Sequence record: OR769032.1
Strand: one strand, 5' to 3'
DNA from: Escherichia phage JoYop
Length of the DNA stretch: 64,000 bases
The position numbers and the translations under genes were made by a program. Numbering within the stretch: the first letter of the stretch is position 1; each line of letters begins with the position of its first letter. The notes beneath the pieces were generated by a model. The model made no database searches and was not told the origin of the DNA. It saw only the letters and a program-made list of their open reading frames with translations. This document shows, piece after piece, positions 39,542 to 40,300 of this stretch.

Positions 39542-39618
39542 TGGTCGAGACAGAAGGATTCTAACCTTCAACCTACGGATTAGAAGTCCGTTGCTCTATA
39601 CAATTGAGCTATGCCTCG
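39542..39618 (-). tRNA. tRNA-Arg (anticodon UCU)
   Basis: Hand-folded cloverleaf: 7-bp acceptor stem, T-arm, anticodon loop CUUCUAA, CCA encoded. Confidence 0.7.
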
Positions 39619-39622
39619 TATT

Positions 39623-39697
39623 TGGCGGACATGCATGGATTCGAACCATGGACCAATTGATTAACAGTCAACTGCTCTACCACTGAGCTACACATCC
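39623..39697 (-). tRNA. tRNA-Asn (anticodon GUU)
   Basis: Hand-folded: GGATGTG acceptor, D-arm GCTCAGTGGTAGAGC, anticodon loop CUGUUAA, T-loop TTCGAAT, CCA encoded. Confidence 0.65.
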
Positions 39698-39701
39698 AAA
39701 T

Positions 39702-39788
39702 TGGTGGGGAGTGATGGAGTCGAACCACCCGAGTCGCAATGACAATGGATTTACAGTCCACACCGCTACCTCTACGGGATAACTCCCC
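39702..39788 (-). tRNA. tRNA-Tyr (anticodon GUA), long variable arm
   Basis: 87 nt; anticodon stem-loop GTGGA-CUGUAAA-TCCAT; variable arm resembles bacterial tRNA-Tyr; D-arm fold less clean. Confidence 0.55.
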
Positions 39789-39801
39789 TTAATTCTTAAT
39801 T

Positions 39802-39876
39802 TGGTGGCCCTGGGTGGAATTGAACCACCATCTGGCGATTATGAGTCGCTTGCTTGAACCTTCCAGCTACAGGGCC
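39802..39876 (-). tRNA. tRNA with CAU anticodon (Ile2/lysidine-type or Met)
   Basis: Hand-folded: acceptor GGCCCTG, anticodon loop CUCAUAA; T4 has a CAU tRNA read as Ile. Confidence 0.6.
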
Positions 39877-39877
39877 T

Positions 39878-39953
39878 TGGTGCTGATTGACGGAATCGAA
39901 CCGCCGACCTTCTCATTACAAGTGAGTTGCTCTACCTACTGAGCTAAATCAGC
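39878..39953 (-). tRNA. tRNA-Thr (anticodon UGU)
   Basis: Hand-folded: D-arm GCTCAGTAGGTAGAGC, anticodon loop CUUGUAA. Confidence 0.65.
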
Positions 39954-39958
39954 AAAAC

Positions 39959-40048
39959 TGGCGGAGGCGATAGGATTTGAACCTATGAGTCGCCGGAGCG
40001 ACTGCCGGTTTTCAAGACCGGTGCATTAAACCACTCTGCCACGCCTCC
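39959..40048 (-). tRNA. tRNA-Ser (anticodon UGA), long variable arm
   Basis: 90 nt; anticodon stem-loop CCGGT-CUUGAAA-ACCGG. Confidence 0.65.
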
Positions 40049-40050
40049 AG

Positions 40051-40124
40051 TCTCCATACAAGGATTTGAACCTTGGACCTCCTGATCCCAAATCAGGCGC
40101 TCTACCAAACTGAGCTACACGGAG
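40051..40124 (-). tRNA. tRNA-Pro (anticodon UGG)
   Basis: Hand-folded: anticodon stem-loop CCTGA-UUUGGGA-TCAGG; CCA not encoded. Confidence 0.65.
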
Positions 40125-40134
40125 TAAATTAAAT

Positions 40135-40208
40135 TGGAGCGGATAATGAGAATCGAACTCACATCATCAGATTGGAAGTCTGAGGTAATGCCATTATACG
40201 ATATCCGC
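40135..40208 (-). tRNA. tRNA-Gly (anticodon UCC)
   Basis: Hand-folded: anticodon stem-loop TCAGA-CUUCCAA-TCTGA. Confidence 0.65.
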
Positions 40209-40213
40209 AAATT

Positions 40214-40300
40214 TGGTGCGAGAAGTGGGACTCGAACCCACAAGGAAATCATTCCGCAGCATTTTAAGTGCTGTGCCTTTACCAATTTGACCATTCTCGC
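40214..40300 (-). tRNA. tRNA-Leu (anticodon UAA), long variable arm
   Basis: 87 nt; anticodon stem-loop CAGCA-CUUAAAA-TGCTG; T-arm GTGGG-TTCGAGT-CCCAC. Confidence 0.65.

What the first reader, a model, noticed from the sequence alone, without database searches (positions are those of the whole stretch)
39542..40300. Nine-tRNA cluster whose complement differs from canonical T4
Hand folding gives nine contiguous minus-strand tRNAs in transcription order: Leu(UAA), Gly(UCC), Pro(UGG), Ser(UGA), Thr(UGU), CAU-anticodon (Ile2/Met), Tyr(GUA), Asn(GUU), Arg(UCU). T4 is known for eight tRNAs including Gln and lacking Tyr and Asn. Here no tRNA-Gln was found, and Tyr and Asn sit between the CAU tRNA and Arg with only 3-13 nt spacers. 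This points to tRNA gain or loss at a recombination-prone locus and a different codon-supplement strategy.
Basis: partly seen in the sequence, partly recalled or inferred. Interest (0 to 1): 0.5.

Follow-up and report, generated by a model that had tools for sequence, protein, structure and literature searches.

The report
Ordinary T-even phage tRNA gene cluster
The nine tRNA genes are real, but they are the common, already described form of the T-even phage tRNA cluster, here with a selfish endonuclease gene sitting where tRNA-Gln normally is; phage T4 is the unusual one.

Summary

The window is a Tequatrovirus (T4-like phage). Its cluster is the T2/RB-type configuration described in 2008 (T2L) and annotated in RB51, RB5, Kha5h, wV7 and slur14. 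The tRNA-Tyr gene occurs in 635 phage records. EC.W14-2 has the identical nine-tRNA order.

In the 16 clusters compared, the fullest set is 11 tRNAs (Gln Leu Gly Pro Ser Thr CAU Tyr Asn His Arg). Each phage lacks a different subset.
- T4 lacks Tyr and Asn because the homing endonuclease gene segB sits there.
- The window lacks Gln because a 202-aa HNH endonuclease gene replaced it, leaving the first 9 nt of tRNA-Gln as a scar.
- The window also lacks His, as do T2, RB5 and Kha5h.

The CAU tRNA is the Ile2 (AUA-reading) type. Phage genes use about twice as much Tyr and Asn as E. coli genes, but not more Gln or His. This fits the supply idea but does not prove it.

Verdict: a real feature, already known, of low interest. 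Only the particular combination of known allelic modules is absent from the collection searched.

The parts
40998..41025 (-). MotA-type middle promoter (ATATGCTTTA, 12 nt, TATTAT) upstream of the operon
   Evidence: A pattern search finds the same 28-nt sequence in the window and at the equivalent place in T4. PMC2330249 states that the T4 cluster is transcribed from a middle promoter just upstream of it. Promoter activity in this phage is inferred.
40920..40928 (-). Remnant of tRNA-Gln: its first 9 nt, TGGGAATTA, 4 nt upstream of the HNH start codon
   Evidence: The upstream flank is collinear with T4 and Kha5h up to and including TGGGAATTA. It then diverges into the HNH cassette. Lutter, JEP6 and CM8 keep TGGGAATCA at the same place.
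40307..40915 (-). Free-standing HNH endonuclease gene (202 aa) occupying the tRNA-Gln slot; it ends 6 nt before tRNA-Leu
   Evidence: PHROG 14736 'HNH endonuclease', E=5e-124. Pfam HNH scores 17.3 bits, below the 21.4 cut-off. The protein is identical in slur14 and EC.W14-2. About 63 phage records carry it at >=95% identity. It is unrelated to SegB.
40214..40300 (-). tRNA-Leu(UAA), CCA encoded
   Evidence: 59.3 bits. 87/87 identical to T4.
40135..40208 (-). tRNA-Gly(UCC), CCA encoded
   Evidence: 63.3 bits. 73/74 identical to T4.
40050..40124 (-). tRNA-Pro(UGG), CCA not fully encoded, 1 nt from Ser
   Evidence: 66.8 bits. 75/75 identical to T4.
39959..40048 (-). tRNA-Ser(UGA), long variable arm, CCA encoded (T4's allele ends GTAA, without CCA)
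   Evidence: 62.6 bits.
39878..39953 (-). tRNA-Thr(UGU)
   Evidence: 72.9 bits. 73/76 identical to T4 and identical to Kha5h, RB51 and wV7.
39802..39876 (-). CAU-anticodon tRNA of the Ile2 (lysidine, AUA-reading) type. Homology between T4 and the window breaks after nt 12 of this gene.
   Evidence: 59.9 bits. The best full-length E. coli match is annotated tRNA-Ile, 62/76 identical with an identical 19-nt anticodon stem-loop. Only 47/75 identical to T4 tRNA-Ile.
39702..39788 (-). tRNA-Tyr(GUA), long variable arm
   Evidence: Identical to Kha5h, RB5, AR1 and Lutter; 85/87 identical to T6. Present in 635 phage records.
39623..39697 (-). tRNA-Asn(GUU), 'type 1' allele
   Evidence: 72.6 bits. Identical to Kha5h and RB51. 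63/75 identical to the T2/slur14 allele, with 5 compensatory base-pair changes.
39621..39647 (-). Probable preferred SegB cleavage/recognition site (GGTTCGAATCCATGCATGTCCGCCAAA) in the 3' half of tRNA-Asn
   Evidence: The sequence contains the GGTTCRANTCC core, the CCAR element and all five preference nucleotides (G6, A16, G18, A26, A27) named in PMC2330249. It differs from the T2 site at 4 positions in the degenerate part. Cleavage itself is inferred.
39542..39618 (-). tRNA-Arg(UCU). This allele is not homologous to T4's Arg, and has D-loop AATTGTATA and T-loop TTAGAAT.
   Evidence: (71.1 bits). Identical to Kha5h and RB51; 44/77 identical to T4 and 62/77 to slur14.
39197..39523 (-). ORF of unknown function (108 aa) between tRNA-Arg and rnaD; absent from T4
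   Evidence: PHROG 3355, E=2e-51; no Pfam hit. Homologues are annotated in slur14, RB51, T2, AR1 and wV7.
39057..39173 (-). Homologue of T4 rnaD (species 2 stable RNA)
   Evidence: Local alignment to T4 rnaD, 99 of 118 columns identical.
38912..39050 (-). Homologue of T4 rnaC (species 1 stable RNA)
   Evidence: 136/139 identical to T4 rnaC.
38838..38861 (-). Intrinsic-terminator-like hairpin (10-bp stem, 7 GC pairs, T run) that would end the operon
   Evidence: A terminator is annotated at the same place in Kha5h. PMC2330249 states that T4 transcription terminates after species I RNA.

Best explanation
This is the standard tRNA operon of T-even (Tequatrovirus) phages, in its common T2/RB-type form. 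It carries one extra selfish insertion. Inferred from T4: a MotA-dependent middle promoter (41025-40998) drives one long transcript. That transcript runs through the HNH endonuclease gene, the nine tRNAs, a small ORF and the rnaD and rnaC stable RNAs, to a terminator at 38861-38838. Host RNase P and other processing enzymes then cut out the tRNAs. The differences from T4 are presence/absence polymorphisms of whole gene slots. (1) T4 carries the homing endonuclease gene segB where most relatives carry Tyr and Asn, and T4 also has different Ile and Arg alleles flanking it. (2) In the window an HNH endonuclease cassette has replaced nucleotides 10 to about 71 of tRNA-Gln. (3) tRNA-His, present in wV7, AR1 and slur14, is absent here, as in T2, RB5 and Kha5h. 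Seven of the nine tRNAs read A-ending codons (UUA, GGA, CCA, UCA, ACA, AUA, AGA) that are frequent in the AT-rich phage genes and rare in E. coli. Tyr and Asn supply two amino acids that phage proteins use about twice as heavily as host proteins. The most likely job of the set is therefore to top up the host tRNA pool during infection. Which tRNAs a given phage carries is set largely by endonuclease-driven gene conversion between co-infecting relatives.
For: Shown here.
- Nine tRNAs are found by ARAGORN and Rfam.
- The window is a Tequatrovirus with T4 gene order around the cluster: trna.2/3/4, ipI and 57B upstream, rnaD, rnaC and e.8 downstream.
- Leu, Gly, Pro, Ser and Thr are 96-100% identical to T4.
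- Homology to T4 breaks at nt 12 of the CAU tRNA and resumes at rnaD.
- The promoter sequence is identical to T4's, and rnaD, rnaC and a terminator are present.
- A Gln scar plus the HNH cassette is seen in all six HNH-bearing genomes examined (the window and five relatives).
- An ARAGORN table of 16 clusters (including the window; the T6 locus is truncated) shows 6 to 11 tRNAs. A missing tRNA coincides with an inserted ORF or a clean deletion in almost every case; CM8's missing Tyr-Asn leaves an unexamined 104-nt gap.
- The identical nine-tRNA order occurs in EC.W14-2.
- tRNA-Tyr occurs in 635 phage records, and the Tyr-Asn-Arg block is 98.9-99.3% identical in Kha5h, RB51, RB68, Ac3 and Sf24/25.
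- Asn and Arg alleles differ by 5 and 4 compensatory base-pair changes respectively, so the cloverleaf structure is under selection (read from the sequences).
- Codon usage per thousand, window against ordinary E. coli genes: UUA 29.6 vs 15.1, GGA 21.8 vs 8.0, UCA 19.8 vs 10.5, ACA 18.3 vs 11.5, AUA 13.0 vs 6.0, AGA 10.8 vs 2.8. Tyr is 4.6% of residues vs 1.9-2.5%, and Asn 6.1-7.1% vs 3.4-4.3%. Gln (3.4% vs 3.2-5.5%) and His (1.8% vs 2.1-2.2%) are not enriched.

From the literature.
- The T2L region carries Met, Tyr, Asn and an isoacceptor Arg plus two ORFs. SegB converts it to the T4 form, and T4 makes a single transcript of about 1.75 kb (PMC2330249).
Against: No expression or processing data exist for this phage, so the single-transcript model is carried over from T4. 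The E. coli codon reference is a single 49-kb region of about 14,900 codons, and window genes were called by a simple ORF heuristic. Enrichment of Tyr and Asn is a correlation, not proof of selection. From general knowledge, T4 tRNA deletions are tolerated in laboratory hosts, so the benefit may be small or host-specific. The tRNA-Tyr of T6 has a demonstrated counter-defence effect (PMC13096335), so supply may not be the only role, or even the main one.
Confidence: 0.9

Rival explanations
1. Counter-defence. Some of the tRNAs, above all Tyr and possibly Thr(UGU), are kept mainly to replace or buffer host tRNAs destroyed by tRNA-cleaving immune systems such as Septu or retron-Eco7 PtuAB and OLD. 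On this view codon matching is secondary. This is compatible with the best explanation as an additional role.
For: T6 tRNA-Tyr over-expression or gene amplification rescues T6 from Septu. Deleting the T6 tRNA region increases sensitivity, and T4, which lacks tRNA-Tyr, cannot escape (PMC13096335). The window's tRNA-Tyr is 85/87 identical to T6's, with an identical variable arm. Phage tRNA-Thr(UGU) suppresses P2-OLD toxicity (PMC12445682). T5-like tRNA-Tyr counters retron-Eco7 (PMC11555353). The phage Tyr gene has no blastn match on E. coli chromosomes, so it is strongly diverged from the host gene.
Against: Septu also cleaves T6 tRNA-Tyr at C48, so protection needs over-expression rather than intrinsic resistance. 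No defence system is known from the papers read that is countered by a phage tRNA-Asn; in one test phage tRNA-Asn did not rescue from PrrC. The anticodon loops of the window's Tyr (CUGUAAA) and Asn (CUGUUAA) are ordinary. Nothing was tested for this phage.
Confidence: 0.35
2. Selfish-element turnover only. The particular set of tRNAs has no adaptive meaning for this phage. It simply records which homing endonuclease cassettes (HNH, segB, other GIY-YIG genes) have converted which slots in its ancestry.
For: Most gains or losses across the 16 clusters coincide with an inserted endonuclease or other ORF. SegB drives nearly 100% inheritance of its own allele and excludes about 1250 bp of T2L sequence, including Met, Tyr, Asn and Arg (PMC2330249). 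The window is a recombinant of modules found separately in slur14/EC.W14-2 (HNH side) and in Kha5h/RB51 (Asn and Arg alleles). The cluster tolerates reduction to six tRNAs in CM8.
Against: The tRNAs that survive are under clear structural selection, shown by compensatory changes. tRNA-Tyr persists in 635 records. The two tRNAs missing from the window serve the two amino acids that are not enriched in phage genes, which is not expected if loss were random, though two cases prove little.
Confidence: 0.3
3. The CAU tRNA is an elongator tRNA-Met, as ARAGORN and many GenBank records label it, and not an AUA-reading tRNA-Ile2.
For: The CAU anticodon reads AUG if unmodified. ARAGORN and most records call it Met.
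Against: Its best full-length E. coli match is annotated tRNA-Ile. It shares 62/76 nt with that gene, including an identical 19-nt anticodon stem-loop and the C4-G69 and C5-G68 acceptor pairs. From memory, those pairs are TilS determinants. RB51 and Lutter annotate it as tRNA-Ile. AUA is used at 13.0 per thousand in the window against 0.2-6.0 in E. coli, whereas AUG use is the same in both.
Confidence: 0.1
4. Some of the nine, for example Tyr with its weak Rfam score or Arg with its odd loops, are decayed pseudogenes.
For: Tyr does not reach the Rfam tRNA threshold. Arg lacks the usual GG in the D-loop and has A where the T-loop normally has C56.
Against: Tyr is identical in several phages, and the near-identical T6 gene yields a detectable, active tRNA (PMC13096335). 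The Arg allele scores 71 bits and is conserved in Kha5h, RB51, JEP6 and an IMG/VR contig. Its two odd positions could form a U19-A56 pair in place of G19-C56.
Confidence: 0.03

Closest known systems
tRNA gene region of phage T2L / T2 (EMBL AJ880101; NC_054931), described in PMC2330249
   Same: Same position and strand. Same CAU (Met/Ile2) allele, and Tyr, Asn and an Arg of the same non-T4 family follow it with 4-10 nt spacers. Same small ORF after Arg, then rnaD and rnaC. There is no segB and no His.
   Different: T2 keeps tRNA-Gln and has an ORF in place of tRNA-Thr. T2 carries the other Asn allele (63/75 identical) and the other Arg allele (62/77 identical).
Clusters of Kha5h, RB51 and RB5 (annotated GenBank/RefSeq records)
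   Same: Kha5h has the same nine tRNAs in the same order. Its Thr, CAU, Tyr, Asn and Arg sequences are identical to the window's, and the Tyr-Asn-Arg block is 99.3% identical.
   Different: Kha5h and RB5 also have an intact tRNA-Gln (10 tRNAs) and no HNH gene. RB51 has Gln but carries a GIY-YIG endonuclease gene in place of Pro.
Clusters of slur14, EC.W14-2, Lutter, JEP6 and CM8 (HNH-bearing Tequatroviruses)
   Same: The HNH protein is identical in slur14 and EC.W14-2, and the same 609-nt ORF occupies this slot in Lutter, JEP6 and CM8. All replace tRNA-Gln and keep the Gln 5' scar. EC.W14-2 has the same nine tRNAs in the same order.
   Different: These phages carry the T2-type Asn and Arg alleles. 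slur14 additionally has tRNA-His. JEP6 has segB in place of Tyr-Asn. CM8 has a SegB-like gene in place of Pro, and lacks Tyr-Asn without an annotated ORF there.
Canonical T4 tRNA cluster (Gln Leu Gly Pro Ser Thr Ile segB Arg rnaD rnaC)
   Same: Same promoter sequence, the same Leu-Gly-Pro-Ser-Thr block (96-100% identical), the same rnaD and rnaC, and the same neighbouring genes.
   Different: T4 has Gln and segB and lacks Tyr and Asn. Its Ile and Arg genes are different alleles (47/75 and 44/77 identical). T4 Ser and Ile lack an encoded CCA, whereas the window's encode it.
[quoted passage not shown]
   Same: These are free-standing HNH endonuclease genes embedded among phage tRNA genes. The window's HNH matches a T5 tRNA-region HNH over 84% of its length. 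Other distant homologues also lie next to tRNA genes (HdH2, Arash, GodonK).
   Different: Identity is only 34.7%. The phage family is different. The activity, target site and mobility of the window's protein are untested.
T6 tRNA-Tyr / SegB anti-Septu locus (PMC13096335)
   Same: tRNA-Tyr is 85/87 identical with an identical variable arm, and sits in the same position after the CAU tRNA.
   Different: T6 has segB immediately after Tyr, in place of Asn, and lacks Pro and Ser. The window has no segB in the cluster, so the SegB-driven amplification route is not available in cis.

Membership tests
T-even (Tequatrovirus) tRNA operon | Located between the trna.2/3/4-ipI-57B genes and rnaD/rnaC-e.8, on the same strand as those genes | tested here: met
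   The ORF map and relatives' annotation show the same neighbours. rnaD and rnaC homologues are mapped.
T-even (Tequatrovirus) tRNA operon | Conserved core order Leu-Gly-Pro-Ser-Thr-CAU with near-identical sequences | tested here: met
   87/87, 73/74, 75/75, 87/90 and 73/76 identical to T4 for Leu, Gly, Pro, Ser and Thr. The CAU tRNA is identical to the T2/RB allele.
T-even (Tequatrovirus) tRNA operon | Middle promoter upstream and terminator after species 1 RNA, giving a single precursor transcript | tested here: inconclusive
   The sequence elements are present and the promoter is identical to T4's. Transcription itself cannot be tested with these tools.
Bacterial-type tRNA (Rfam RF00005) | Cloverleaf scoring above the family threshold | tested here: met
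   Eight of nine score 59-73 bits against a gathering score of 29. Tyr is below threshold in Rfam but is folded by ARAGORN and is near-identical to the experimentally detected T6 tRNA-Tyr.
tRNA-Ile2 (lysidine-modified CAU, reads AUA) | CAU anticodon, with body and anticodon arm resembling host tRNA-Ile(CAU) rather than tRNA-Met | tested here: met
   The best E. coli match is annotated tRNA-Ile. 62/76 nt are identical, with an identical 19-nt anticodon stem-loop and C4-G69 and C5-G68.
tRNA-Ile2 (lysidine-modified CAU, reads AUA) | C34 converted to lysidine by TilS, and charging with isoleucine | not testable with these tools
   Needs mass spectrometry or aminoacylation assays.
Free-standing HNH homing endonuclease | HNH (His-Me finger) catalytic motif | tested here: inconclusive
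   PHROG 14736 'HNH endonuclease' at E=5e-124, plus ten other HNH-type PHROGs. The Pfam HNH hit is 17.3 bits, below the 21.4 cut-off. The sequence shows CxxC...HxD...N...CxxCH.
Free-standing HNH homing endonuclease | [quoted passage not shown] | tested here: met
   HNH is present in the window, slur14, EC.W14-2, Lutter, JEP6 and CM8. Intact tRNA-Gln occupies the same place in T4, T2, T6, Kha5h, RB5, RB51, AR1 and wV7.
Free-standing HNH homing endonuclease | Site-specific cleavage of the endonuclease-less allele, and preferential inheritance in mixed infection | not testable with these tools
   Needs purified protein and phage crosses.
SegB target locus (segB-less tRNA cluster convertible by T4 or T6) | No segB in the cluster, and a tRNA-Asn carrying the 27-bp preferred site (GGTTCRANTCC core, CCAR, G6 A16 G18 A26 A27) | tested here: met
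   There is no GIY-YIG ORF in the cluster. The site at 39621-39647 has the core, the CCAA element and all five preference nucleotides, with 4 differences from T2 in the degenerate part (criteria from PMC2330249).
SegB target locus (segB-less tRNA cluster convertible by T4 or T6) | Actual cleavage by SegB and conversion in co-infection | not testable with these tools
   Needs an in vitro cleavage assay or phage crosses.
Anti-defence phage tRNA (tRNA-Tyr against Septu / PtuAB) | Homology to a phage tRNA-Tyr shown to relieve Septu | tested here: met
   85/87 identical to T6 tRNA-Tyr, with an identical variable arm (PMC13096335).
Anti-defence phage tRNA (tRNA-Tyr against Septu / PtuAB) | Relief of a defence system by this tRNA at native or raised dosage | not testable with these tools
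   Needs plaque assays on hosts carrying the defence system.

The most novel reading that the evidence does not exclude
The HNH gene is an active homing endonuclease whose natural target is the tRNA-Gln gene itself. If so, T-even tRNA clusters act as a landing pad in which individual tRNA slots each have their own selfish endonuclease that spreads by overwriting the tRNA: HNH at Gln, a SegB-like gene at Pro, and segB at Asn/Tyr. In addition, the variable Tyr-Asn(-His) block would be kept as an anti-defence island. Only Tyr has a known opponent (Septu/PtuAB), and the Asn allele, which resembles host tRNA-Lys, would answer a nuclease not yet identified.
Probability: 0.25. Interest if true: 0.4.

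Novelty: already known. Interest (0 to 1): 0.12.

Why it matters
It matters little as a discovery. The Tyr/Asn-bearing tRNA cluster of T-even phages was sequenced and discussed in 2008, is annotated in many genomes, and has recently been tied to defence evasion. The case is useful as a caution: T4, the textbook reference, is atypical because segB has overwritten two tRNA genes. It is also a tidy example of tRNA content being remodelled slot by slot by mobile endonuclease genes. The one detail I did not find stated in the papers read is that the HNH cassette overwrote tRNA-Gln and left a 9-nt scar. If that enzyme proves to target tRNA-Gln genes, it would add a second characterised homing system to this locus.

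Tried and rejected
1. Exact-pattern scan of IMG/VR with a 47-nt tRNA-Leu sequence. It gave only 3 loci, though one of them carries the full 11-tRNA set. The survey therefore relied on the annotated phage collection.

2. Rfam at a permissive E-value over 37500-42000. Apart from tRNA, the only hits were sub-threshold ones (Plastid-ycf2, sX4, YrlA, psbI-rps4). All of them lie on the tRNA genes, so I rejected them as tRNA look-alikes. No Rfam family matched the rnaC/rnaD homologues.

3. Idea that RB51's endonuclease in the Pro slot is the same HNH gene hopping between slots. Rejected: it is a GIY-YIG/NUMOD3 protein like SegB, and the window's HNH shows no similarity to SegB.

4. Idea that the unusual T-loop of the window's tRNA-Arg (GGTTAGAATCC) evolved to escape SegB's GGTTCRANTCC core. 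Dropped: the T2-type and T4 Arg alleles (GGTTCGATCCC) also miss the strict motif, yet the paper reports T2L tRNA-Arg is cut weakly. The pattern is therefore not informative.

5. Pfam on the two flanking ORFs (39197-39523 and 38314-38787) and on the T2 ORF in the Thr slot. No hits. PHROGs places the two window ORFs only in families of unknown function.

6. The sigma-70 consensus scan gave 16 promoter-like sites against 11.9 +/- 2.9 expected, so it was uninformative. A MotA-box pattern was used instead. Its second match, inside the ORF at 39438-39410, is probably chance.

7. The thought that Tyr, Asn and His are all GUN-anticodon (queuosine-type) tRNAs, the target class of colicin E5. This comes from memory only, no tool or paper read here bears on it, and it is not used as evidence.

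8. The large protein-database, structure-prediction and RNA-model tools were not used, because the identification was already unambiguous.
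Full report

Yes. ARAGORN on the whole window finds exactly nine tRNA genes, all on the minus strand between 39542 and 40300. In transcription order they are Leu(UAA), Gly(UCC), Pro(UGG), Ser(UGA), Thr(UGU), a CAU tRNA, Tyr(GUA), Asn(GUU) and Arg(UCU). Spacers are 1-13 nt.

Rfam's tRNA model scores eight of the nine at 59-73 bits against a threshold of 29. Tyr shows up only as a sub-threshold tRNA-Sec hit. ARAGORN still folds it as a regular long-variable-arm cloverleaf with a weak D-stem. It is identical to the annotated tRNA-Tyr of RB5, AR1 and Kha5h, and 85/87 identical to that of T6. 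The T6 tRNA has been detected on northern blots and shown to be biologically active (PMC13096335). No tRNA-Gln exists anywhere in the 64 kb.

**2. What genome is this and what surrounds the cluster?**

The window is a T4-like phage of the genus Tequatrovirus. The region matches more than 1000 phage records. Over 24 kb the nearest records are only about 94-96% identical, so this exact phage is not in the collection.

Gene order is that of T4. Upstream in transcription lie the homologues of 57B, ipI and trna.4/3/2. Downstream lie rnaD, rnaC and e.8. A MotA-box middle promoter sequence (ATATGCTTTA, 12 nt, TATTAT) lies at 41025-40998 and is identical to the T4 sequence at the equivalent position. 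Homologues of the T4 stable RNAs lie at 39173-39057 (rnaD, 99 of 118 aligned columns identical) and 39050-38912 (rnaC, 136/139 identical). A strong terminator-like hairpin follows at 38861-38838.

This is the layout reported for T4, in which one middle-promoter transcript of about 1.75 kb covers the whole cluster and ends after species I RNA (PMC2330249). That the window works the same way is inferred from T4, not shown.

**3. Why does the tRNA set differ from T4?**

I compared 16 clusters (including the window; the T6 locus is truncated) with the same program (using loci). Square brackets mark a protein-coding gene occupying a tRNA slot.

| Phage | tRNAs | Content |
|---|---|---|
| wV7, one IMG/VR contig | 11 | Gln Leu Gly Pro Ser Thr CAU Tyr Asn His Arg |
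| Kha5h, RB5 | 10 | lack His |
| slur14 | 10 | [HNH] in place of Gln |
| AR1 | 10 | [endonuclease] in place of Pro |
| window, EC.W14-2 | 9 | [HNH] in place of Gln; lack His |
| RB51 | 9 | [GIY-YIG endonuclease] in place of Pro; lacks His |
| T2 | 9 | [ORF] in place of Thr; lacks His |
| T4 | 8 | [segB] in place of Tyr and Asn; lacks His |
| Lutter | 8 | [HNH] in place of Gln, [ORF] in place of Thr; lacks His |
| JEP6 | 7 | [HNH] in place of Gln, [segB] in place of Tyr and Asn; lacks His |
| CM8 | 6 | [HNH] in place of Gln, [SegB-like] in place of Pro; lacks Tyr, Asn and His |

The locus is therefore a row of slots, each holding either a tRNA or an inserted gene. The reference phage T4 is the one that lost Tyr and Asn.

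The T4/window alignment shows this directly. Leu to Thr are 96-100% identical. Homology stops after nucleotide 12 of the CAU tRNA and resumes at rnaD. In between, T4 has the rest of its own Ile allele, segB and its own Arg allele. The window has its CAU allele, Tyr, Asn, a non-homologous Arg (44/77 identical) and a 108-aa ORF.

This is the heterologous block described for T2L. SegB cuts preferentially inside tRNA-Asn and converts about 1250 bp (Met, Tyr, Asn, Arg and ORFs) to the T4 form in mixed infections (PMC2330249). The window's tRNA-Asn retains the SegB core GGTTCGAATCC, the CCAA element and all five nucleotides the paper names as making the site preferred. It is therefore probably a SegB target. 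This is inferred from sequence.

**4. Where did tRNA-Gln go?**

The flank upstream of T4 tRNA-Gln is conserved in the window right through the first nine nucleotides of the tRNA (TGGGAATTA, 40928-40920). Four nucleotides later a 609-nt ORF begins (40915-40307), and tRNA-Leu starts 6 nt after its stop codon.

PHROGs assigns the ORF to an HNH endonuclease family at E=5e-124. The Pfam HNH hit is below its cut-off. The protein is identical in slur14 and EC.W14-2. All six HNH-bearing genomes examined (the window and five relatives) keep the same Gln scar. About 63 phage records encode the protein at 95% identity or more. It is unrelated to SegB.

Its distant relatives include a T5 tRNA-region HNH gene (34.7% identity) and other HNH genes lying beside tRNA genes. 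[quoted passage not shown]

So the absence of Gln is a replacement by a mobile endonuclease cassette. That part is shown by sequence comparison. That the enzyme targets intact tRNA-Gln genes and homes is inferred.

**5. Are these working tRNAs, and what is the CAU tRNA?**

The window's Asn and Arg are identical to those of Kha5h and RB51, but only 63/75 and 62/77 identical to the alleles of T2, slur14 and EC.W14-2. The differences include five (Asn) and four (Arg) double, pair-preserving changes in the anticodon and T stems (read from the sequences). That is the signature of selection for the cloverleaf.

The CAU tRNA's best full-length E. coli match is annotated tRNA-Ile. It shares 62/76 nt with that gene, including an identical 19-nt anticodon stem-loop and the C4-G69 and C5-G68 acceptor pairs. 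It is therefore the AUA-reading Ile2 type, as for T4 tRNA-Ile and as the RB51 and Lutter records say, rather than tRNA-Met. The lysidine modification cannot be tested here.

**6. Function**

The reference was annotated genes in a 49-kb E. coli K-12 region, split into ribosomal/elongation-factor genes and the rest.

| Codon or residue | Window | Ordinary E. coli genes | Highly expressed E. coli genes |
|---|---|---|---|
| UUA (per thousand) | 29.6 | 15.1 | 2.5 |
| GGA | 21.8 | 8.0 | 1.2 |
| UCA | 19.8 | 10.5 | 1.7 |
| ACA | 18.3 | 11.5 | 2.9 |
| AUA | 13.0 | 6.0 | 0.2 |
| AGA | 10.8 | 2.8 | 1.0 |
| Tyr (% of residues) | 4.6 | 2.5 | 1.9 |
| Asn (%) | 6.1 (7.1 in late genes) | 4.3 | 3.4 |
| Gln (%) | 3.4 | 5.5 | 3.2 |
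| His (%) | 1.8 | 2.2 | 2.1 |

The codons read by most of the A-ending-codon tRNAs are 1.6- to 3.9-fold more frequent in the window than in ordinary E. coli genes; CCA (13.0 vs 11.5 per thousand) is the exception at 1.1-fold. Tyr and Asn are about twofold enriched as amino acids. Gln and His, the two tRNAs this phage lacks, are not enriched. This fits a supply role, with the caveats of a small reference sample and of correlation only.

A second role, not exclusive of the first, has experimental backing elsewhere. T6 tRNA-Tyr relieves Septu immunity when amplified (PMC13096335). Phage tRNA-Thr(UGU) relieves P2-OLD (PMC12445682). Phage tRNA-Tyr relieves retron-Eco7 (PMC11555353). I found no such precedent for tRNA-Asn.

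**7. Novelty and verdict**

The Tyr/Asn-bearing cluster has been in the literature since 2008 and in annotated genomes since 2009 (RB51). This tRNA-Tyr is in 635 phage records. The Tyr-Asn-Arg block is 98.9-99.3% identical in seven named phages. EC.W14-2 has the same nine tRNAs in the same order.

What is not in the collection is the window's particular combination: the HNH-for-Gln module together with the Kha5h/RB51 Asn and Arg alleles. The best match over 2.5 kb is 95.5%. That is simply a recombinant of known modules.

The finding is real, correctly described, and ordinary. It is already known and of low interest.

Noticed in passing
window 39702-39788; locus L011 (NZ_CP019027 plasmid pEC881_2) 3921-4747: The phage tRNA-Tyr has no blastn match on any E. 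coli chromosome. It matches about 270 E. coli plasmids of 72-112 kb at 94% identity. In the plasmid I examined (pEC881_2) it sits in an Asn-Tyr-Thr-Ser tRNA cluster near DNA ligase, glutaredoxin and integrase genes, which suggests a phage-plasmid. Of the plasmid's tRNAs only Tyr is close to the window's (82/87); Asn, Thr and Ser are not. The same Tyr gene is also 96-97% identical in unrelated phages of about 135-142 kb. This suggests horizontal spread of this one tRNA gene.
   Followed up: partly
window 39623-39697: Positions 8-66 of the window's tRNA-Asn allele (shared with Kha5h and RB51) are 90% identical to E. coli tRNA-Lys. Comparing with the E. coli tRNA-Lys sequence recalled from memory, the anticodon stem-loop appears to differ only at the wobble base (G34 instead of U34). 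The other Asn allele (T2, slur14) lacks this resemblance. It could reflect an origin by anticodon change or be coincidence.
   Followed up: no
window 39542-39618: The window's tRNA-Arg(UCU) allele has D-loop AATTGTATA, with no GG, and T-loop TTAGAAT, with A where C56 is normally found. The slur14/T2 allele has the usual GG and TTCGATC. The two changes could form a U19-A56 tertiary pair replacing G19-C56. The allele is conserved in Kha5h, RB51, JEP6 and an IMG/VR contig.
   Followed up: partly
window 39959-40048 and 39802-39876, compared with L002 (T4): The window's tRNA-Ser and CAU tRNA encode their 3' CCA, whereas the T4 alleles end in GTAA and TCAT without it. tRNA-Pro lacks a full CCA in both phages. 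From general knowledge of T4 tRNA maturation, dependence on host CCA-adding and 3'-trimming enzymes would differ between these phages.
   Followed up: no
window 38283-38861: A 157-aa ORF of unknown function (38314-38787, PHROG 2280) is absent from T4. It is bracketed by two similar terminator-like hairpins: AGCCCCAACCGAAAGGTTGGGGCT at 38861-38838 and AGCCTCAGCCGAAAGGTTGGGGTT at 38306-38283. The RB51 record notes the same ORF as 'flanked by 34 bp imperfect direct repeat'. It looks like an inserted cassette that duplicated the operon terminator.
   Followed up: partly
window 39197-39523: The small ORF after tRNA-Arg (PHROG 3355, unknown function) is 108 aa here but 116 aa in slur14, RB51, T2, AR1 and wV7. 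A substitution creates an earlier TAA stop.
   Followed up: no
loci L008 (RB51) 3025-3633, L014 (AR1) 1284-1934, L016 (CM8) 1574-2182: In RB51, AR1 and CM8 an endonuclease gene occupies the tRNA-Pro slot between Gly and Ser. RB51's was confirmed as GIY-YIG/NUMOD3 by Pfam. AR1's is annotated segD/homing endonuclease and CM8's SegB-like. In T2 and Lutter an ORF with no Pfam hit occupies the tRNA-Thr slot.
   Followed up: partly
window 28000-52000: Over 24 kb the nearest phage records are only 94-96% identical, with 91-95% coverage in 6-10 pieces. The window therefore comes from a Tequatrovirus not represented in the collection, and it is mosaic relative to its relatives.
   Followed up: no
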